From a virus (lineage: Duplodnaviria; Heunggongvirae; Uroviricota; Caudoviricetes), in IMG/VR virus record IMGVR_UViG_3300032294_001260: 64,000 bases of DNA. One strand, given 5' to 3'. Within the stretch, counting starts at the first letter, position 1; the number at the start of each line of letters is the position of its first letter. The notes under the pieces are model-generated. The model did not search any database. It saw only the letters and a list, made by a program, of their open reading frames with translations, and was not told the origin of the DNA. Of the stretch, positions 44,149 to 64,000 are shown piece after piece. The translations under genes were made by a program, and so were the position numbers.

Positions 44149-44164
44149 AATATTCTCCTTTGTG

Positions 44165-44560
44165 TGTTGTTTGTGTTATGACAAATGGTGCGTTTATTCT
44201 GTTTCCAAGAAAACCCACCGAAAACTCAGGTATTCTAAATCGGCTTAAGCCGCAAGAGCCATGTCGTAAACATCATCGTTTGCGTTTACTTTGTTTGCGC
44301 GAATTACGTTCGTCGCCTTTCGGGTAGCCTTTGGTTTATTACTTGCCCTGTCGAAGCCAAATTCATCCCCGTCGGAAAGCCACCACGTACATTACTGCAG
44401 AGGTGGTGGGCATCTGATAATTTGGTGGAGATGTCGGGGGTCGAACCCGAGTCCAGAACACCTTTAGTCAAAGGTTGACTACCATTATTCCTTTATCCTA
44501 ATAGCGGGCGAGAGAAATCTCTTCGTTTAAGACTGGAGATTACAAGTTTCCAGTCCCCAT
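44165..44560 (-). ncRNA. ssrA: Circularly permuted (two-piece) tmRNA gene. Acceptor piece ~44560-44423, ending ...GGACUCGGGUUCGACCCCCGACAUCUCCACCA. Roughly 50-nt spacer. Coding piece starts at 44370 (GGGGAUGAAUUUGGCUUCGACAGGG...) and contains the tag ORF (resume GCA at 44283 or 44298 through UAA at 44247-44245), encoding (ANKVN)ANDDVYDMALAA. The 3' end of the coding piece is undetermined.
   Basis: Acceptor 3' strand CAUCUCC-A-CCA pairs with 5' GGGGAUG, including G3:U70 and A73 (AlaRS identity). The T-arm UCGGG-UUCGACC-CCCGA matches E. coli tmRNA GGACGCGGGUUCAACUCCCGCCAGCUCCACCA. The coding-piece head matches E. coli GGGGCUGAUUCUGGAUUCGACGGG. The tag ends in ALAA followed by UAA. The CCA-end piece precedes the GGGG 5' end, which is the gene order of permuted ssrA. 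Confidence 0.7.
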
Positions 44561-51927: not shown

Positions 51928-52005
51928 TCACTATAAGAATATTATGCCTAATTCTTGCTAAAAACGCAACAGGAAAAACTCTAATGAAATCAACTACTTA
52001 CGAGA
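51928..52005 (-). promoter_or_regulatory. Early-promoter cassette copy 2 (TTGCGT-17-CATAAT)
   Basis: taatcactataagaatattatgcctaattcttgctaaaaacgcaacaggaaaaactctaatgaaatcaactacttac. Confidence 0.5.
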
Positions 52006-52201
52006 ATGAAAGACGCTGGCGTTCGCCAATTTTCCAAACAGCAGCAACTTCATCGTAGTCCAAACGCAATGGAAGAGAGTTTTTATCGGCGGCGACCCAT
52101 GTCATTTTATGGGGGCTAACCTCGTATCTCGTCACTTCAAAATCCATAGTATAGCCGCTTTTGAAAACGACTCGCAACTTGAATACAGTTTCGAATGTCA
52201 T
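51998..52201 (-). CDS. Small hypothetical protein (67 aa, MTFETVFKLRVVFKSGYTMDFEVTRYEVSPHKMTWVAADKNSLPLRLDYDEVAAVWKIGERQRLSFS)
   Basis: C-terminal in-frame part of table ORF 51998..52414, starting at the internal ATG. The ATG overlaps the stop of paralogue 2 (TAATG). Confidence 0.45.
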   Translation of the reverse strand: MTFETVFKLRVVFKSGYTMDFEVTRYEVSPHKMTWVAADKNSLPLRLDYDEVAAVWKIGERQRLSFS

Positions 52202-52491
52202 TAGATCCTCTCCGCTTTGTTGATGCGGTTGATCACATACGCTGCCATCTGCTCCGCAACCTCCGCCGCCGACGTCGCCGTCCCCGTCGCCGAAACGACC
52301 TGTACGACCCTCGCAGCCCACTCCGCCCATGCCGCATCCGCCCCCACAACCTCCGCCGAATACGCCGCCGCCTTCGCCGCCTCTGGTGTGCGCTCCTTGC
52401 ACATGGTCTTCCAAGCATCACCATAGCCGCGTTCGTCTGCAAAGGACTGATGCTGCTCAAGACGCGCCCACATCTTTTTAAGGTCACTCAC
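52201..52491 (-). CDS. Paralogue 2 of the GC/Ala-rich family
   Basis: MSDLKKMWARLEQHQSFADERGYGDAWKTMCKERT... with Ala-rich centre and the ...INKAERI C-terminus. Confidence 0.55.
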   Translation of the reverse strand: MSDLKKMWARLEQHQSFADERGYGDAWKTMCKERTPEAAKAAAYSAEVVGADAAWAEWAARVVQVVSATGTATSAAEVAEQMAAYVINRINKAERI

Positions 52492-52763
52492 GGCTTTATC
52501 TCCCTCATCGTGTCGATGGCGAGTTCGCTATATTGGTCAACCCTCGCCGCAGCAGCCGCCACCGCAGCCCTCGCTTCTGCCGCAGCCCTCGCAAACCACG
52601 CCGCTTCCGACGCCTCGAACGCGCCCGCCGCAGCCGCTGCCTGCCATGCCTCCCACGCAGTATCAGCCGTTCGCTTTCGGCACATTTTGCGCCACGCTTT
52701 AGCGTACTTGGACTTCGGCTTGTGCGCTTCCAGCACCGCCCACATTGTGTCAAGATTAGTCAT
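52488..52763 (-). CDS. Paralogue 3 of the GC/Ala-rich family
   Basis: Internal ATG of table ORF 52488..52970: MTNLDTMWAVLEAHKPKSKYAKAWRKMCRKRT.... TAATG overlap with paralogue 4. Confidence 0.5.
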   Translation of the reverse strand: MTNLDTMWAVLEAHKPKSKYAKAWRKMCRKRTADTAWEAWQAAAAAGAFEASEAAWFARAAAEARAAVAAAAARVDQYSELAIDTMREIKP

Positions 52764-53047
52764 TAGATGTTCTCCGCTTTGTTGATGAAACAAATCGCTT
52801 CCGCCGCCGAATACGCCGCCGATGCCGCAGCCCTCGCCGCCCACGCCGCATTCGCCGCATACGCCGCACCCGCCGCCCACGCCTCCCTCGCCTCCTCCCA
52901 CGCCTCCCTCGCCTCCCTCGCCGCCGCCTCCGCTGCCTTTGGTGTGCGCTCTTCGCACATCCGCTTCCATTTCTTTCCATAGCCGCGCTCATCTGCGATC
53001 GGCTGGTGTTCTGCGAGACGAATCCACATTGTGTCAAGATTAGTCAT
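52763..53047 (-). CDS. Paralogue 4 of the GC/Ala-rich family
   Basis: MTNLDTMWIRLAEHQPIADERGYGKKWKRMCEERT...AAEAICFINKAENI. Confidence 0.55.
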   Translation of the reverse strand: MTNLDTMWIRLAEHQPIADERGYGKKWKRMCEERTPKAAEAAAREAREAWEEAREAWAAGAAYAANAAWAARAAASAAYSAAEAICFINKAENI

Positions 53048-53349
53048 TAGATGTTCTCCGCTTTGTTGATGTACCAGATCGCGTCTTCTGCATACTCAAC
53101 CAGAGACCCCGTTGTCGCAGCCCACGCCATCATCGCCGCATCCGCAGCCGAGCGCAACCTAGCCTTCTGCGCTGATGCCCCAGCCCACGCCGCATCCAAC
53201 GCTGCGGCTTTTAACGTCGCTCCCGCAATTGTTGCTACATCTGGTGTGCGCTCTTGGCACATTGTGCGCCAAACATCGCCGTAACCACCAGCATCGGCAA
53301 AGGACTGATGCTGCGCGAGACGAGTCCACATTTCGTTAAGGTTTGTCAT
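53047..53349 (-). CDS. Paralogue 5 of the GC/Ala-rich family
   Basis: MTNLNEMWTRLAQHQSFADAGGYGDVWRTMCQERT...AIWYINKAENI. The start is taken at the ATG behind the cassette SD. TAATG overlap with paralogue 4. Confidence 0.55.
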   Translation of the reverse strand: MTNLNEMWTRLAQHQSFADAGGYGDVWRTMCQERTPDVATIAGATLKAAALDAAWAGASAQKARLRSAADAAMMAWAATTGSLVEYAEDAIWYINKAENI

Positions 53350-53356
53350 TGTTAGT

Positions 53357-53436
53357 TCCTTGTTAATCACTATAAGAATATAGTGCCTAATTCTTACTAA
53401 AAACGCAACAAGAAAAACTCTAATGAAATCAATGAC
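53357..53436 (-). promoter_or_regulatory. Early-promoter cassette copy 3
   Basis: taatcactataagaatatagtgcctaattcttactaaaacgcaacaagaaaaactctaatgaaatcaatgacttag. Confidence 0.5.
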
Positions 53437-53811
53437 TTAGACAATCCCGAGTTTTGCATTCATCTCGTTGATTTCTTCTGGGGTGGCGATCTTCAATGCG
53501 CTAGGTCGCTGCTGCTTGATTCGCAACATCCGCTGAGATCCAGCCTTAAGGCGCTTGGCTTCTGCCTTGGCAGCACGCGCAGCCGCTTTTTCAGCACGCT
53601 TCGCCTCACGCGCTGCCTTCACAGCCGCACGATGATCTTCCTTCACGATGCGATCTATCCGCGTCTCGCGGCGAATCTCGGCGCGGAGAGCACTCTGCAT
53701 CTGTCGCGACACCTTAATCGCCTCGCGAGTCGCCTTTATGGCACCGATCATATCCTTCACAACCTGACGCTCACGAGCCAGATTCGCCTTCATTTCGTTA
53801 AGACTACTCAT
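53437..53811 (-). CDS. Basic coiled-coil protein (Lys/Arg/Ala-rich, histone H1-like composition)
   Basis: 124-aa ORF. RAAVKAAREAKRAEKAAARAAKAEAKRLKAG. Confidence 0.45.
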   Translation of the reverse strand: MSSLNEMKANLARERQVVKDMIGAIKATREAIKVSRQMQSALRAEIRRETRIDRIVKEDHRAAVKAAREAKRAEKAAARAAKAEAKRLKAGSQRMLRIKQQRPSALKIATPEEINEMNAKLGIV

Positions 53812-54116
53812 GGCTTTACCACTGTGATCGCGTCGATGGCGCGTTGAGCGTCGTAGTCAGTCATCGCCGCCTTGACTGTCGCATCCGCCGCAAAAGTCGC
53901 CGCCCGATTCGCCCACGACGCCTCCGCCGCAACCTTCCCAGCCTTCGCCGAATACGCCGCGTTCGCTGCAACCATCGCCGCATCCGCCGCAGCCCTCCCC
54001 GCTTTAACGGTGCGCTCCTTGCACATTGTTTTCCACGCATCTCCATAGCCTCGCCTGTCTGCGATAGGCTGATGTTGCGCAAGATGGTTCCACATTTCGT
54101 TTACAGTAAGACCCAT
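53808..54116 (-). CDS. Paralogue 6 of the GC/Ala-rich family
   Basis: MGLTVNEMWNHLAQHQPIADRRGYGDAWKTMCKERT.... Confidence 0.55.
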   Translation of the reverse strand: MGLTVNEMWNHLAQHQPIADRRGYGDAWKTMCKERTVKAGRAAADAAMVAANAAYSAKAGKVAAEASWANRAATFAADATVKAAMTDYDAQRAIDAITVVKP

Positions 54117-55865: not shown

Positions 55866-56438
55866 TCACGCCGCTTTCCTCCAGACTCGACTGGTCTTTG
55901 GAATGCTTGCCTTCAAGAATTCCATTTGGTCCGCAAGAACCTTTCGATTCTTCAAAAGAATTCTTTCATGCACTGTTGGTGCATACGGAACATAGAGCAG
56001 ATGCATCTTTGCTTCTTCTGGTGTCTTCCAGCCCTTACGATGATTGCACACACGGCATGCAGTCACACAGTTTGACCAGTAATTCTTACCGCCGCGTGAC
56101 TTTGGCAGCACGTGATCGATGGTCAATTGGCTAGTGTTGAATTCATCACCACAATATGCGCAGATGTACTGATCGCGGGCATACAGCGTCATACGATCAG
56201 CGAACACAGTCTGTGTGTTGTAAAACTTGTCGCCAAGAATAGGACCACTCACACCGATGATTGACGAAATGTCAATCCGTGATTGTTCTCCATACTGGTT
56301 GTATCCACCCAGCATGGTCTTCAATTTTTCGCCGAGTTCCCAAACGACCTTTTCCTTTGCGTAATAGCAAGCAGCGATTTCAAAATCGCACCAGTCTTTT
56401 GGAGCACCACCCTTGTCTACAACCAATACCAATGACAC
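55866..56438 (-). CDS. HNH endonuclease (McrA-like; DHVLPKSRGG...NCVTACRVCNHRKG), GTG start
   Basis: 190-aa ORF. SD AAGGAG sits 9 nt upstream of the GTG. It is preceded by TATAAATA (56469-56476, minus strand). Confidence 0.7.
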   Translation of the reverse strand: MSLVLVVDKGGAPKDWCDFEIAACYYAKEKVVWELGEKLKTMLGGYNQYGEQSRIDISSIIGVSGPILGDKFYNTQTVFADRMTLYARDQYICAYCGDEFNTSQLTIDHVLPKSRGGKNYWSNCVTACRVCNHRKGWKTPEEAKMHLLYVPYAPTVHERILLKNRKVLADQMEFLKASIPKTSRVWRKAA

Positions 56439-60770: not shown

Positions 60771-60862
60771 TGGTGCTCCCGCTTGGACTTGAACCAAGAC
60801 TAACCGCTAATCTGGCGAATCGGGATTATAAGTCCCGTCGTGCTACCTTACACTACAGGAGC
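60771..60862 (-). tRNA. Class II (long variable arm, ~17 nt) tRNA with apparent anticodon UAU; A73; CCA encoded
   Basis: GCUCCUG/CGGGAGC acceptor. 3-bp D-stem with G18G19. Anticodon arm CGGGA-CUUAUAA-UCCCG. Extra arm UCGC-CAGAUUA-GCGG. T-arm CUUGG-UUCAAGU-CCAAG. Confidence 0.5.
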
Positions 60863-62436: not shown

Positions 62437-62625
62437 TTAGAAAATTAAAACAAATGTAGTCAAAAATAAAACTGTCAGTACAGAACAAAGTATACTGTAT
62501 CCAACGAGTTTAGTCAACTCCAATTTTTGCTTTTTGGTTGTACTTCGGAATGCTTGAATGCCGAAGAAGAATCCACCAAAAATAAGAAGAAATGCTAACA
62601 AAATTTTAAACATAAAAAACTCCAT
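62437..62625 (-). CDS. Small hydrophobic membrane protein (2 TM)
   Basis: 62-aa ORF MEFFMFKILLAFLLIFGGFFFGIQAF.... Confidence 0.4.
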   Translation of the reverse strand: MEFFMFKILLAFLLIFGGFFFGIQAFRSTTKKQKLELTKLVGYSILCSVLTVLFLTTFVLIF

Positions 62626-62634
62626 GTTAAAAAT

Positions 62635-62711
62635 TGGTGCCCAGAGTGGGAGTCGAACCCACAGAAGTTCGGGTTTGAGCCGAACATGTTTGCCAATTAC
62701 ATCACCTGGGC
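62635..62711 (-). tRNA. tRNA with anticodon CAA (Leu-type anticodon) but class I body (5-nt variable loop); A73
   Basis: GCCCAGG/UCUGGGC acceptor. D-stem AUGU/ACAU. Anticodon arm UUCGG-CUCAAAC-CCGAA. T-arm GUGGG-UUCGACU-CCCAC. CCA encoded. Confidence 0.5.
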
Positions 62712-63105
62712 AAAAATATGGTGCCAGTGTTGCTGGCTCGGGAATCCCAGTCCTCGGCAGTTAGAGACTGCTTACATACCACCCTACTCTAACCATATTG
62801 AAGCACACTGCCGATTATAGCACCGTCTTTTCCGTGCTTTACTCTAGCCATTACACTATCTTAAGACAGTGTCATTGATTGAGGCTGCAATGCATAAGAC
62901 TAAACAATATGCTTCAATATGGTATAAGAGACAGGTTCAGTAATCCCAACTGCTCATTGCGCAGGGCAATTTAGGTCGAAGCCACCCGCCATTTACATAT
63001 ACCATATTGAAACACACTATGCAGAAGTCTCTAATCTCGCCTCAACAGAGGCATAACACACGACCTCAGTGCTTCGGTGTGTCCAAAATATAGTGTGCTT
63101 CAATA

Positions 63106-63181
63106 TGGTGTCCAGTACTGGGATTGAACCAGTGACCTCTACCTTGTCATGGTAGCGTTCGTGCCGCTGAACTAACTGGAC
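63106..63181 (-). tRNA. tRNA-Val (anticodon GAC)
   Basis: GUCCAGU/ACUGGAC acceptor. D-stem GUUC/GAAC. Anticodon arm CUACC-AUGACAA-GGUAG. T-arm ACUGG-UUCAAUC-CCAGU. A73, CCA. Confidence 0.65.
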
Positions 63182-63530
63182 AGTAAGATTGAGAAGGGCT
63201 GAGATTACACCCTTTCTAGAAATGCTTCTGGCATTATAGTTAGTCTTGCGAACCAACCTTCTCCAGACATCCACTGATGTTCTTTTCGATACACCAGTAC
63301 ACTTCCAACATCGCCGTTTTTAAGGTCAGGCATTAGACCTTTCATCGTTGATTACTCTGTACCTTCTAATCCGTTGACCTTGCGAGCCATTCACCGTCGC
63401 TAAACCGTTACGAATATTTTTGTACAAACTCACTACACCTTGCGGGCTTCGCGAGACTCAGTTGACTTGCGTCCTGAGTGTTAGATGTTTTTCATCAACA
63501 ATAGAGACAGACTTTGCGTTTTAATCGTTA

Positions 63531-63600
63531 GATGGATTTGAACCACCAGCCGACTCCTCAAAATGGAGTTGCACTACCATTGTGCTACAACTGTAACCTA
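63531..63600 (-). tRNA. tRNA-Lys(UUU)-like element with good D-arm, anticodon arm and T-arm but no closing acceptor stem (pseudo-tRNA, split or intron-containing tRNA?)
   Basis: UAGCACAAUGGUAGUGCA D-arm. Anticodon arm ACUCC-AUUUUGA-GGAGU. T-arm GGUGG-UUCAAAU-CCAUC. Flanks are not complementary. Confidence 0.25.
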
Positions 63601-64000
63601 CTATGATGTGCTGTCTCTGTTGCTGCGTAATGTTTTGAATTACGCAATACAACACACCACGTACCTTTCGTCTTGCTCGACTACTCAGTCGCATGTCACG
63701 ACCAATGTTTGCCTGAAGCACCCATCAACCGTTAATGCTGCGTCTCAACCCTTGGCTGCAAGACCTCGGATCAAAACACTACTCTTTCCTATGCCTGTTA
63801 ACAAGTTAGTATTGTGTTGAGGTCGGCACTACCCGTTACTCTCTGTCTGCCCGCTTTACCCTTGCGGGAGCATAAGCAGATATTCTTTCCAACACACTTG
63901 CGTCACAGTTACAACCATCGGTCTTATCAATGATCGCATCCTCGCGGATGTAGGCAAGTTTGCATAGATGAACCTATTGCTAGGCGCAGTCCTGTAGGAG

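What the first reader, a model, noticed from the sequence alone, without database searches (positions are those of the whole stretch)
62712..63999. 1.3-kb ORF-poor, RNA-structure-rich region with an inverted 15-19-nt motif and tRNA-like fragments
After tRNA(CAA) the window contains almost no convincing protein ORFs. It contains tRNA-Val(GAC) and a Lys(UUU)-like tRNA body whose acceptor stem does not close (63531-63600). There are multiple GC hairpins (for example GCCAG-CAACA-CUGGC at ~62650-62670 region, and CCCGC-UUUACCCUU-GCGGG at ~63850). A motif (A/G)TGTG(C/T)TTCAATATGG is present 4 times in alternating orientation (62794-62811 rev, 62902-62920 fwd, 63001-63021 rev, 63087-63101 fwd). The forward copies sit immediately 3' of tRNA-type CCA ends. 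This could be a group I intron or split-tRNA region, a cluster of small RNAs, a replication origin, or homing-endonuclease recognition and processing sites (RNase P/RNase E sites between tRNAs).
Basis: seen in the sequence. Interest (0 to 1): 0.55.

Follow-up and report, generated by a model that had tools for sequence, protein, structure and literature searches.

The report
Phage GOLLD RNA, tRNAs, clamp hairpins
This gene-free stretch is the RNA-only end of a large phage's tRNA cluster: most of it is a known giant RNA (GOLLD) carrying a tRNA, and the repeated motif belongs to an apparently undescribed, phage-specific RNA hairpin that base-pairs the CCA end of the preceding tRNA and probably marks where the long transcript is cut.

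Summary

- **GOLLD RNA.** 63196-63660 is the conserved 3' domain (Rfam 218 bits, threshold 150). A tRNA-Lys(UUU)-like gene sits in its linker. 63661-64000 is its 5' domain, cut off by the window end.
- **Downstream elements.** In order: tRNA-Val(GAC), hairpin H1, small RNA X1, hairpin H2, small RNA X2, tRNA-Leu(CAA).
- **The repeated motif.** The four copies are the arms of H1 and H2. Each is a roughly 19-bp helix whose 5' strand starts at the discriminator-CCA of the preceding RNA.
- **Distribution.** This "CCA-clamp" hairpin occurs about 200 times in about 120 uncultured viral contigs, many T4-like, almost always inside tRNA arrays. Compensatory changes, a fixed U.G wobble and fixed polarity show RNA-level selection. 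Its interior is hypervariable.
- **Not catalogued.** It is absent from Rfam 15 and from 50,697 GenBank phage records. It appears once in 185,579 species genomes.
- **X2.** It belongs to a new pseudoknotted family of about 75 nt that ends in ACCA.
- **Mechanism (inferred).** The hairpins most likely act as processing and insulating stems in a polycistronic tRNA/small-RNA precursor.
- **Rejected.** A group I intron, a split tRNA and a replication origin are not supported.

The parts
63661..64000 (-). GOLLD RNA, variable 5' domain. It is incomplete: the window and the source contig both end here, and about 35-70 nt of the 5' end are missing.
   Evidence: It holds no convincing ORF. It aligns at 72-78% identity to the sequence directly upstream of the conserved GOLLD 3' domain in viral loci L236, L235, L226 and L225. 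Those relatives share further conserved sequence, including a covarying GNRA hairpin, 5' of the point where the window stops. The source contig L001 begins at exactly this base. Published GOLLD architecture is a 5' region of about 420 nt followed by a 3' region of about 410 nt (PMC12286853).
63196..63660 (-). GOLLD RNA, conserved 3' domain
   Evidence: Rfam RF02032 scores 218.1 bits against a gathering score of 150, E=2e-60. The full model (positions 1-416) is matched and not truncated.
63523..63594 (-). tRNA-Lys(UUU)-like gene embedded in the GOLLD linker. Its acceptor stem has 5 of 7 pairs and it has no encoded CCA.
   Evidence: ARAGORN calls it and the Rfam tRNA model scores 50.5 bits. It falls in the insert of the GOLLD alignment. 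Related GOLLDs carry tRNA-Asn or tRNA-Lys at the same place.
63106..63181 (-). tRNA-Val(GAC), with encoded CCA
   Evidence: ARAGORN calls it. Rfam scores it 60.4 bits.
63001..63109 (-). CCA-clamp hairpin H1. The 5' arm is 63109-63090 and starts with the ACCA of tRNA-Val. The 3' arm is 63020-63001. The interior of about 69 nt is an orphan sequence.
   Evidence: The inverted repeat is 20 nt at 95% complementarity. The fold is -51.7 kcal/mol, z = -8.9. It matches the family consensus. nhmmer finds no homologue of the interior.
62920..63000 (-). X1, an orphan small RNA of about 80 nt. It has a 6-bp terminal stem (GGUAUA/UAUACC) and ends in ACCA.
   Evidence: Fold (z = -1.5). It has no homologue in 1.9 Mb of related loci. 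It is not a significant member of the X2 family, scoring 4 bits. ARAGORN and Rfam do not call it a tRNA.
62792..62923 (-). CCA-clamp hairpin H2. The 5' arm is 62923-62905 and starts with the ACCA of X1. The 3' arm is 62810-62792. The interior of about 94 nt is an orphan sequence.
   Evidence: The inverted repeat is 19 nt at 89% complementarity, the departures being G.U wobbles on the minus strand. The fold is -49.1 kcal/mol, z = -6.25. nhmmer finds no homologue of the interior.
62719..62796 (-). X2, a member of a pseudoknotted small-RNA family of about 75 nt. Helices P1 and P2 form the pseudoknot. The blocks GGUGGUAUGUAG and CGAGGACYGGGAUUCC are nearly invariant across the family. A 3' minihelix GCCAG-CAACA-CUGGC is followed by ACCA.
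   Evidence: Homologues occur in more than 20 viral contigs. In alignment A1, 84.5% of cells pair against 27-44% in slid controls, and 13 of 16 pairs change on both sides. Model R1 scores 91.6 bits here. Rfam has no match.
62635..62711 (-). tRNA-Leu(CAA). It lies 7 nt (UAUUUUU) downstream of the ACCA of X2 and marks the lower boundary of the finding.
   Evidence: ARAGORN calls it. Rfam scores it 58.5 bits.

Best explanation
**What it is (shown).** The region is the RNA-only end of the tRNA array of an uncultured T4-like myovirus. Every element lies on the minus strand, the strand of all 15 tRNA genes in the window. In 5'->3' order it encodes:
1. a GOLLD RNA, truncated at its 5' end by the window edge, with a tRNA-Lys(UUU)-like gene in its linker;
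2. tRNA-Val(GAC);
3. clamp hairpin H1;
4. small RNA X1;
5. clamp hairpin H2;
6. small RNA X2;
7. tRNA-Leu(CAA).

The four motif copies are the arms of H1 and H2. Each hairpin has a helix of about 19 bp. Its 5' strand begins with the discriminator and CCA of the preceding RNA (ACCAUAUUGAARCACAUU). Its 3' strand ends in UGGU (AGUGUGYUUCAAUAUGGU). The helix encloses a hypervariable insert of 19-157 nt.

**How it works (inferred).** The array is probably transcribed as one precursor. I propose that each clamp:
- isolates neighbouring RNA modules so that they fold independently;
- holds the upstream 3' CCA in a duplex;
- serves as the entry site for an endonuclease.

The most likely enzyme is the host's double-strand-specific RNase III. 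RNase E cutting at the conserved CCAU/AUU is the alternative. Cleavage would free the upstream tRNA or ACCA-ending RNA, the insert as a stem-capped small RNA, and a short leader that RNase P removes from the next tRNA.

My confidence in the identities and in the RNA-level structure is about 0.9. My confidence in the processing/insulator role is about 0.5, and in RNase III specifically about 0.3.
For: **GOLLD**
- Rfam scores 218 bits with the full-length model.
- The 5' domain is homologous to that of other GOLLD loci.
- A tRNA sits in the linker, as published for GOLLD (PMC12286853).

**Phage context**
- PHROGs assigns baseplate and tail proteins. The nearest cultured relatives are pelagimyophages at about 31% amino-acid identity.

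**Clamp hairpin as a family**
- The motif is present four times against 0.48 expected.
- 175-203 inverted pairs were found, nearly all inside tRNA arrays and on the tRNA-sense strand.
- 70 of 175 start exactly at the CCA of an ARAGORN tRNA. Where a tRNA follows within 60 nt of the 3' arm, it most often begins 4-15 nt after it.

**RNA-level pairing**
- On 71 distinct arm pairs, 88% of cells are paired against 31-48% in slid controls.
- 18 of 21 pairs show changes on both sides. The covariation score is 0.336 against 0.06-0.11 in slid controls, and 0 of 500 shuffles reach it.
- A U.G wobble at stem position 16 is present in 128 of 159 hairpins. The C.A expected for the opposite orientation never occurs, although orientation was assigned only from neighbouring tRNAs.
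- A structure-only scan found a stem of at least 16 of 17 pairs starting at the 3' end of 96 of 1141 tRNAs. My own calculation puts the chance expectation at about 2. About 10 of these have entirely different arm sequences that keep CCAU...AUGG.

**Module behaviour**
- The same tRNA-tRNA junction is empty (a 4-9 nt A/U spacer) in some phages and filled in others.

**Window hairpins**
- H1 and H2 fold with z = -8.9 and -6.25.

**Precedents**
- E. coli RNase E removes a whole hairpin immediately after the CCA of proline tRNAs in one step (PMC5291269, abstract).
- RNase III stems flank the mature RNAs in rRNA operons and T7 transcripts (own knowledge).
Against: - No transcript or cleavage data exist. 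Co-transcription and cleavage are inferred from position only.
- A mere processing site should not need an insert of 19-157 nt, and it should not need about 15 positions conserved in sequence across divergent phages. RNase III has little sequence specificity.
- The AU-rich candidate RNase E site lies inside the helix, and RNase E prefers single strands.
- Most tRNA junctions in the same arrays manage with a 4-9 nt spacer. The clamp is therefore not needed for ordinary maturation.
- Its strong preference for tRNA-Lys(UUU), Glu(UUC), Leu(UAG) and Gln(UUG), and its absence after Met, Asn, Ser(GCU), Cys, Asp and Trp, suggest a more specific role.
- No nuclease gene was found consistently linked. 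The most frequent neighbour is a PF04308 RNase H-like protein, present in only 22 of 121 loci and absent from this window.
Confidence: 0.5

Rival explanations
1. Display scaffold. The functional product is the hypervariable insert. It would be a repertoire of phage small RNAs, such as antisense regulators, decoys or tRNA-like mimics. The conserved 19-bp stem would be a common stabilising and expression handle, much as tRNA scaffolds are used to express foreign RNAs.
For: - Inserts are long (median 53 nt, up to 157 nt) and were never reduced to a tetraloop.
- 203 hairpins fall into 137 unrelated insert clusters.
- Several insert families recur across phages with their own predicted helices.
- 12% of inserts contain a T-loop-like GTTCRANYC motif, against about 1% expected by my own estimate.
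- Runs of hairpins alternate with other ACCA-ending small RNAs.
Against: - Inserts are on average hardly more stable than shuffled sequence (mean z = -0.38).
- No position-specific conservation is seen next to the stem.
- The inserts of H1 and H2 have no homologue in 1.9 Mb of related loci and no significant complementarity within the 64-kb window. This is as expected for unconstrained filler.
- This reading is compatible with the main explanation rather than exclusive of it.
Confidence: 0.22
2. tRNA-specific control or protection. By pairing N73-C74-C75-A76 with a cis UGGU, the clamp would delay or regulate 3' maturation, RNase P recognition, CCA repair or aminoacylation of particular phage tRNAs. 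It could also shield them or act as a decoy against host tRNA-targeting nucleases. The UGGU mimics the GGU of the RNase P RNA L15 loop that binds RCCA (own knowledge).
For: - The clamp follows 42% of tRNA-Lys(UUU) (odds ratio 10.8, p=2e-9), 30% of Glu(UUC), 24% of Leu(UAG) and 19% of Gln(UUG).
- It follows 0 of 94 Met, 0 of 50 Asn, 0 of 48 Ser(GCU), 0 of 45 Cys and 0 of 43 Asp.
- Lys, Glu and Gln(UUN) are the xm5s2U34 tRNAs that anticodon nucleases such as PrrC attack (own knowledge).
- The stem always starts at the discriminator base.
Against: - The enrichment is not corrected for shared ancestry of the arrays.
- In this window the clamps follow tRNA-Val(GAC) and a non-tRNA (X1).
- 105 of 175 clamps follow no recognisable tRNA.
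- When the upstream end is not CCA, the first pairs simply covary, for example CUUU/AAAG and UUAU/AUAA. CCA itself is therefore not required.
Confidence: 0.13
3. DNA-level mobile or recombination module. The inverted 19-nt arms would be terminal inverted repeats of a miniature mobile element. Alternatively they would be repeats that drive modular shuffling of tRNA and small-RNA cassettes, like the PeSL cassettes of T4-type phages (own knowledge).
For: - Copies are polymorphic for presence or absence at orthologous tRNA junctions.
- There are many copies per genome, with near-identical arms and unrelated interiors.
- The element is confined to viral contigs. It occurs once in 185,579 species genomes, on a 1.5-kb MAG contig.
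- HNH endonuclease genes lie in the same arrays.
Against: - No direct target-site duplication is present.
- Orientation relative to the tRNAs is invariant: U.G and never C.A at position 16 in 159 of 159.
- G.U is tolerated where A.C is not, and fully compensated arm replacements occur. These are signatures of selection on an RNA helix, not on transposase-binding ends.
- No transposase is associated with the element.
- Mobility and RNA function could coexist.
Confidence: 0.1
4. One reading: a group I intron, a split tRNA, or a replication origin.
For: - The region is ORF-free and rich in inverted repeats.
- A group I intron does occur in one related array, at L098 13185-13378.
Against: - The window has no group I intron match at E<=10.
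- All tRNAs found are complete.
- There is no GC-skew inflection.
- The region is fully accounted for by GOLLD, tRNAs, the clamps and X1/X2.
Confidence: 0.02

Closest known systems
GOLLD RNA (Rfam RF02032; Weinberg et al. 2009; cryo-EM 14-mer nanocage, PMC12286853)
   Same: It has the conserved 3' domain (218 bits), a variable 5' domain of about 400 nt, a tRNA in the linker, and a location in a phage tRNA island.
   Different: Nothing in kind; it is a new member. The copy in the window lacks its first 35-70 nt or so because the sequence ends. The linker tRNA is a Lys(UUU)-like gene with a weakened acceptor stem.
RNase III processing stems (16S/23S rRNA operon stems, phage T7 R1.1-type sites, SP82 early-RNA sites) - own knowledge
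   Same: Both are near-perfect helices of about 20 bp placed between mature RNAs in a polycistronic precursor. Their sequence is conserved among the sites of one phage. Both tolerate G.U pairs.
   Different: - Here the helix encloses the spacer, not the mature RNA.
- It starts exactly at a tRNA CCA.
- It carries a hypervariable insert of 19-157 nt.
- It keeps nearly the same sequence across many divergent phages.
- Cleavage has not been shown.
One-step RNase E removal of the hairpin that follows the CCA of E. coli proline tRNAs (PMC5291269)
   Same: In both cases a tRNA with an encoded CCA is followed at once by a stable stem-loop that blocks exonucleases, so an endonuclease must cut at the CCA. 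The clamp carries a conserved A/U-rich CCAUAUU sequence.
   Different: The E. coli hairpins are Rho-independent terminators with a U tract and do not pair with the CCA. The clamp has no U tract, is internal to the array, and includes the CCA in the helix.
Stable RNAs 'species 1 and 2' (rnaC, rnaD) of the phage T4 tRNA cluster - own knowledge
   Same: These are non-tRNA small RNAs of unknown function. They are encoded among phage tRNA genes and have tRNA-like CCA 3' ends, like X1, X2 and the other X elements.
   Different: No sequence similarity was tested or is known. T4 has no clamp hairpins: no canonical clamp was found in 50,697 GenBank phage records.
Y RNAs / bacterial YrlA
   Same: Both have a conserved basal stem formed by the 5' and 3' ends, enclosing a variable module that is sometimes tRNA-like. 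Some are found in phage tRNA arrays.
   Different: There is no Rfam Y_RNA or YrlA match at E<=10. The stem sequence is different. No Ro/Rsr gene was seen in the loci examined.

Membership tests
GOLLD RNA (RF02032) | Match to the curated covariance model of the conserved 3' domain, above the gathering score | tested here: met
   218.1 bits against a threshold of 150, model positions 1-416 of 416, at 63196-63660 on the minus strand.
GOLLD RNA (RF02032) | A less conserved 5' domain of about 400 nt directly upstream, giving an RNA of about 800 nt | tested here: met
   340 ORF-free nt lie upstream. They are 72-78% identical to the 5' parts of other GOLLD loci. The domain is truncated by the window end, and relatives extend about 35-70 nt further.
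GOLLD RNA (RF02032) | Phage or prophage location next to tRNA genes, often with a tRNA in the linker | tested here: met
   The host is a T4-like myovirus. The window holds 15 tRNAs. A tRNA-Lys-like gene sits in the linker, and related GOLLDs have Asn or Lys tRNAs there. The published description was retrieved.
GOLLD RNA (RF02032) | Assembly into a homo-14-mer nanocage | not testable with these tools
   This needs cryo-EM or biochemistry.
Canonical tRNA (the Lys(UUU) gene at 63523-63594) | Cloverleaf with a closed 7-bp acceptor stem and a 3' CCA, either encoded or added | tested here: inconclusive
   The Rfam tRNA model scores 50.5 bits and ARAGORN calls it. However, acceptor pairs 2:71 and 3:70 are C.A and A.G, and no CCA is encoded.
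RNase III processing stem | About two turns of near-perfect double-stranded RNA in a precursor, between mature RNAs | tested here: met
   The helix is 19-21 bp and 88% paired across 71 distinct copies. It lies between a CCA end and the next tRNA.
RNase III processing stem | Staggered cleavage by RNase III | not testable with these tools
   No RNA-end data are available. An in vitro assay or RNA-seq is needed.
MITE / terminal-inverted-repeat mobile element | Direct target-site duplication flanking the inverted repeats | tested here: not met
   Filled junctions equal CCA, then the element, then the ordinary spacer. The flanks are inverted (CCA/UGG), not direct.
MITE / terminal-inverted-repeat mobile element | Insertion in either orientation, and copies that share their interior sequence | tested here: not met
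   Polarity is fixed in 159 of 159 copies. Interiors fall into 137 unrelated clusters among 203 copies.
Rho-independent terminator | G+C-rich stem followed by a U tract | tested here: not met
   The clamp arms are A/U-rich at the base and are followed by UA and a spacer, not by a U run. The only terminator-like call is the 5-bp minihelix of X2.
Group I intron | Match to the Intron_gpI covariance model | tested here: not met
   No match in 62600-64000 at E<=10.
Replication origin | GC-skew inflection | tested here: not met
   Cumulative skew declines steadily from 40 kb to 64 kb. Iterons and initiator-binding boxes were not tested. The four repeats are explained as RNA helix arms.
Y RNA / YrlA | Match to the Rfam models, and a Ro-binding helix sequence | tested here: not met
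   No such match at E<=10.
tRNA-like structure (X2 family) | An acceptor-like stem followed by NCCA at the 3' end | tested here: met
   The 5-bp minihelix plus ACCA is conserved, with 100% of cells paired and 3 covarying pairs.
tRNA-like structure (X2 family) | Cloverleaf or L-shape mimic recognisable by tRNA models | tested here: not met
   Neither ARAGORN nor the Rfam tRNA model calls it. The supported fold is a P1/P2 pseudoknot.

The most novel reading that the evidence does not exclude
The CCA-clamp hairpins would be a phage-specific modular RNA cassette system. In this reading a portable 19-bp stem fuses a hypervariable small RNA directly to the CCA end of particular phage tRNAs, above all Lys(UUU), Glu(UUC) and Gln(UUG), which are the classic anticodon-nuclease targets. 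Together with GOLLD and the ACCA-ending X RNAs it would form an RNA-based counter-defence or tRNA-supply device. It would not be a mere processing signal.
Probability: 0.12. Interest if true: 0.85.

Novelty: new variant of a known kind. Interest (0 to 1): 0.6.

Why it matters
**Known part.** About two thirds of the region is a further example of GOLLD with a tRNA in its linker. GOLLD has a solved structure but no known function.

**New part.** Two elements appear to be uncatalogued. They are absent from Rfam 15, and my literature searches found no description of them. Both have strong comparative support.
- A widespread, phage-only hairpin that pairs the CCA end of the upstream tRNA.
- A pseudoknotted, ACCA-ending RNA of about 75 nt (the X2 family).

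**Consequences.**
- Phage tRNA arrays would then be mixed operons of tRNAs and many other structured RNAs, with a shared punctuation element. They would not be simple tRNA lists.
- The clamp gives a concrete handle for asking how such arrays are processed.
- It also raises the question of why it tracks the tRNAs that host anticodon nucleases attack.
- It may help explain what travels with GOLLD.
- The clamp could be useful as a natural, portable RNA expression and insulation module.

Tried and rejected
- **Synteny through the neighbouring Band_7 gene.** 52 related viral loci were fetched. None of the 11 scanned carries GOLLD. None of the 45 tRNAs tested in these loci is followed by a clamp. 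Synteny therefore gave no alignment for covariation.
- **Extending the sequence past 64000.** The contig carrying the same gene starts exactly at the window end. An exact 24-mer scan of metagenome contigs found nothing.
- **Cultured phages.** Neither the 346-nt region nor a 44-nt consensus hairpin gave a true match in 50,697 GenBank phage records. The only real similarity was the GOLLD 3' domain in Sinorhizobium phage Phosso.
- **Literature.** A search by sequence string found nothing relevant. Topic searches found only the GOLLD/ROOL papers and a catalogue of viral candidate structured RNAs, whose supplements are not held.
- **A linked nuclease gene.** ORF clustering of 121 loci put a PF04308 RNase H-like protein first, but in only 22 loci and not in this window.
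- **Inserts as antisense guides.** There is no significant complementarity of the H1 or H2 inserts or of X1 to the 64-kb window.
- **X1 as a diverged X2.** The X2 covariance model scores it 4 bits, E=4.
- **X2 as an amber-suppressor tRNA.** Its stem-loop GCAG-UCUCUAA-CUGC resembles an anticodon arm with a CUA anticodon. I rejected this because the loop pairs with the 5' UUAGAG in a covarying pseudoknot.
- **Promoter readings of the arms.** I considered a T7-like GCACACTATA promoter and a T4 MotA box (TGCTTCA). I rejected both because those bases are not the conserved ones across the family.
Full report
**1. What is at the coordinates**

All 15 tRNA genes in the window, and a tmRNA, lie on the minus strand between 44 and 64 kb. 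Within 62712-64000 there are only short ORFs of at most 85 aa, and they overlap RNA genes.

Rfam at curated thresholds places a complete GOLLD 3' domain at 63196-63660 on the minus strand. It scores 218.1 bits against a gathering score of 150 and matches model positions 1-416.

ARAGORN and Rfam both call a tRNA-Lys(UUU) at 63523-63594. This falls in the variable insert of the GOLLD alignment. Its acceptor stem has two adjacent mismatches, and no CCA is encoded. tRNA-Val(GAC) is at 63106-63181 and tRNA-Leu(CAA) at 62635-62711.

The motif TGTGYTTCAATATGG is present four times in alternating orientation against 0.48 expected. These copies form two long inverted repeats.

**2. The GOLLD part**

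Published work describes GOLLD as an RNA of more than 800 nt from phages and prophages, often near tRNA islands. It has a variable 5' region (residues 1-420 in the solved example) and a conserved 3' region. tRNAs are sometimes present in its linker (PMC12286853).

The 340 nt between 63661 and the window end are the 5' region. They align at 72-78% identity with the sequence upstream of the conserved domain in viral loci L236, L235, L226 and L225.

Those relatives share further conserved sequence 5' of the point where the window ends, including a covarying GNRA hairpin. About 35-70 nt are therefore missing here. The source contig begins at exactly that base, and I could not extend it.

The linker tRNA varies among relatives. 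It is Asn(GUU) in L236, L235 and L232, and Lys(UUU) in L233 and in the window.

**3. The repeated motif is an RNA helix that begins at a CCA end**

Read on the minus strand, tRNA-Val ends ...GGACACCA. This ACCA is the start of the 5' arm ACCAUAUUGAAGCACACUAU, which pairs with AUAGUGUGUUUCAAUAUGGU 69 nt downstream. This is hairpin H1, at -51.7 kcal/mol and z = -8.9.

After H1 comes an element of about 80 nt (X1) that also ends in ACCA. That ACCA starts the second hairpin, H2 (z = -6.25).

After H2 comes X2, again ending in ACCA. It is followed by UAUUUUU and then tRNA-Leu(CAA).

**4. The hairpin is a large, phage-specific family**

- In these loci I found 175-203 inverted pairs, 57-157 nt long overall (one paired at 244 nt). 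Nearly all lie in tRNA arrays, and all read R-then-F, the 5'-arm copy (R, CCAUAUUGAA...) first and the 3'-arm copy (F...UUCAAUAUGG) second.
- In 70 of 175 the 5' arm starts exactly at the CCA of an ARAGORN tRNA. The rest mostly follow non-tRNA elements that end in NCCA. Where a tRNA follows within 60 nt of the 3' arm, it most often starts 4-15 nt after it.
- The paired pattern occurs once in 185,579 bacterial and archaeal species genomes, on a 1.5-kb contig of a Planktophila MAG that is itself a tRNA array.
- It is absent from 50,697 GenBank phage records.
- It has no Rfam match at E<=10. A gathering-threshold scan of 15 clamp-rich loci returned essentially only tRNAs among its 150 listed matches, plus one group I intron.
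- Genes near the arrays are of the kind found in T4-type phages: RNase H, lysozyme-like and dCMP-deaminase-like proteins, and HNH endonucleases.
- The window encodes T4-type baseplate proteins, about 31% identical to those of pelagimyophages.

**5. Selection acts on RNA pairing**

On 71 distinct arm pairs:
- 88% of cells are paired, against 31-48% when partners are slid;
- 18 of 21 pairs show changes on both sides;
- the covariation score is 0.336, against 0.06-0.11 in slid controls, and 0 of 500 shuffles reach it.

Pairing holds for the discriminator, the CCA and about 15 further pairs. It decays after pair 18-19.

A U.G wobble at position 16 is present in 128 of 159 copies. The C.A expected for the reverse orientation never occurs, although orientation was set only from neighbouring tRNAs. 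G.U is frequent at position 11 (52 copies), while A.C is rare there (3 copies).

A scan that ignored sequence found a stem of at least 16 of 17 pairs starting at the 3' end of 96 of 1141 tRNAs. My own calculation puts the chance expectation at about 2. About ten of these have wholly different arms that keep CCAU...AUGG, for example CCAUAUGUUUAGUGUUAUC paired with GAUAACACUAAACAUAUGG.

When the upstream end is not CCA, the first pairs covary, for example CUUU/AAAG.

**6. The insert and the placement**

- Inserts are hypervariable. 203 hairpins give 137 BLAST clusters.
- No column next to the stem is conserved.
- Mean folding z is only -0.38.
- 12% of inserts contain a T-loop-like motif, and some insert families recur with their own helices.
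- The H1 and H2 inserts, and X1, are orphans.
- The same tRNA-tRNA junction is empty in some phages and filled in others. There is no direct target-site duplication.
- Placement is non-random. The clamp follows 42% of Lys(UUU), 30% of Glu(UUC), 24% of Leu(UAG) and 19% of Gln(UUG). It follows none of 94 Met, 50 Asn, 48 Ser(GCU), 45 Cys, 43 Asp or 41 Trp tRNAs. These figures are not phylogenetically corrected.

**7. X2 is a new structured family**

A scan with a 16-mer and a context check found more than 20 homologues, usually flanked by clamps.

In alignment A1 (16 sequences), helices P1 and P2 form a pseudoknot and P3 is a 3' minihelix before ACCA.
- 84.5% of cells are paired, against 27-44% in slid controls.
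- 13 of 16 pairs change on both sides.

The covariance model scores 91.6 bits on the window copy. It finds the family in 8 of 100 clamp loci.

**8. Mechanism**

*Shown.* The elements are conserved RNA helices on the tRNA-sense strand. They lie exactly between a CCA end and the next RNA in dense arrays.

*Inferred.*
- The array is one precursor.
- The clamps insulate neighbouring folds and are endonuclease entry sites.
- A G.U-tolerant helix of 19-21 bp fits RNase III.
- The conserved CCAUAUU fits the RNase E preference (RN/WUU, own knowledge).
- E. coli has a precedent for one-step RNase E removal of a hairpin that follows a tRNA CCA (PMC5291269).

*Against a purely processing role.*
- The inserts are long.
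- The stem sequence is conserved across divergent phages.
- Most junctions do without a clamp.
- The clamp prefers particular tRNAs.

I therefore keep three rivals open: display scaffold, tRNA-specific control or protection, and DNA-level cassette.

**9. Verdict**

The intron, split-tRNA and origin options are rejected.

Most of the region is a new member of a known family (GOLLD). The motif that attracted attention belongs to a widespread RNA hairpin of phage tRNA arrays that appears to be undescribed, and it is accompanied by a new pseudoknotted ACCA-ending RNA family.

Noticed in passing
window 44154-44515 (-): The phage encodes a tmRNA. ARAGORN calls it permuted, with tag peptide ANDDVYDMALAA. 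Rfam gives tmRNA_permuted 138.9 bits and beta_tmRNA 108.5 bits. Related GOLLD loci L232 and L233 also carry permuted tmRNAs (tag ANDELFAIAA).
   Followed up: no
window 52001-54000: There is a G+C-rich island (0.574, against about 0.42 for the rest of the window) with strongly negative GC skew (-0.24), just upstream of the tRNA array.
   Followed up: no
window 60771-60862 (-); also L061 4811-4905, L082 1499-1597, L070 5908-5999: tRNA-Ile(UAU) is unusually long (92-99 nt) in this phage and in several related arrays. This suggests a conserved long extra arm or an insertion.
   Followed up: no
L113, L158, L078, L105, L172, L077, L146 (inter-tRNA junctions listed): A second, unrelated recurrent inter-tRNA element occurs in the same arrays: CCA-GUUUUAGGAUnnnUUCAGCAAA...AAAAAnnnAUCCUGUU, about 70-120 nt. 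It is not present in the window.
   Followed up: no
L235 about 3330-3230 and L236 about 5790-5690 (minus strand of the loci; alignment A3 columns 20-135): Just upstream of the GOLLD RNA in relatives there is a clamp-like hairpin with a different, longer stem (UUCUUAACAUUGUUGAAC... pairing with ...GUUCAACAAUGUUAAGAA). Whether the window's GOLLD has one cannot be seen, because the sequence ends.
   Followed up: partly
L057 6495-6643, L105 6002-6190, L106 362-487(-), L158 5140-5271, L162 1414-1592 (X cluster 1): This is a recurrent element of 125-190 nt between clamps. It has a conserved GAGUAAUUAAC...GUCGGAAGUCAUGA block followed by a tRNA-like part that has a D-loop-like and a T-arm-like region but no clear anticodon arm. 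Other recurrent ACCA-ending families (X clusters 2 and 3) also exist.
   Followed up: partly
L098 13185-13378 (-): Rfam finds a group I intron (53.4 bits) inside a related clamp-rich tRNA array. The window has none.
   Followed up: no
window 55884-56429 (-) and many related loci: Free-standing HNH endonuclease genes are interspersed in the tRNA arrays. A PF04308 'RNase H-like' gene is the most frequent neighbour of clamp-bearing arrays (22 of 121 loci), but it is absent from this window.
   Followed up: partly
clamp-bearing loci L055-L175: The clamp preferentially follows tRNA-Lys(UUU), Glu(UUC), Leu(UAG) and Gln(UUG). It never follows Met, Asn, Ser(GCU), Cys, Asp, Trp, Arg(UCU) or Gly(GCC). 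The reason is unexplained, and the test is not corrected for shared ancestry.
   Followed up: partly
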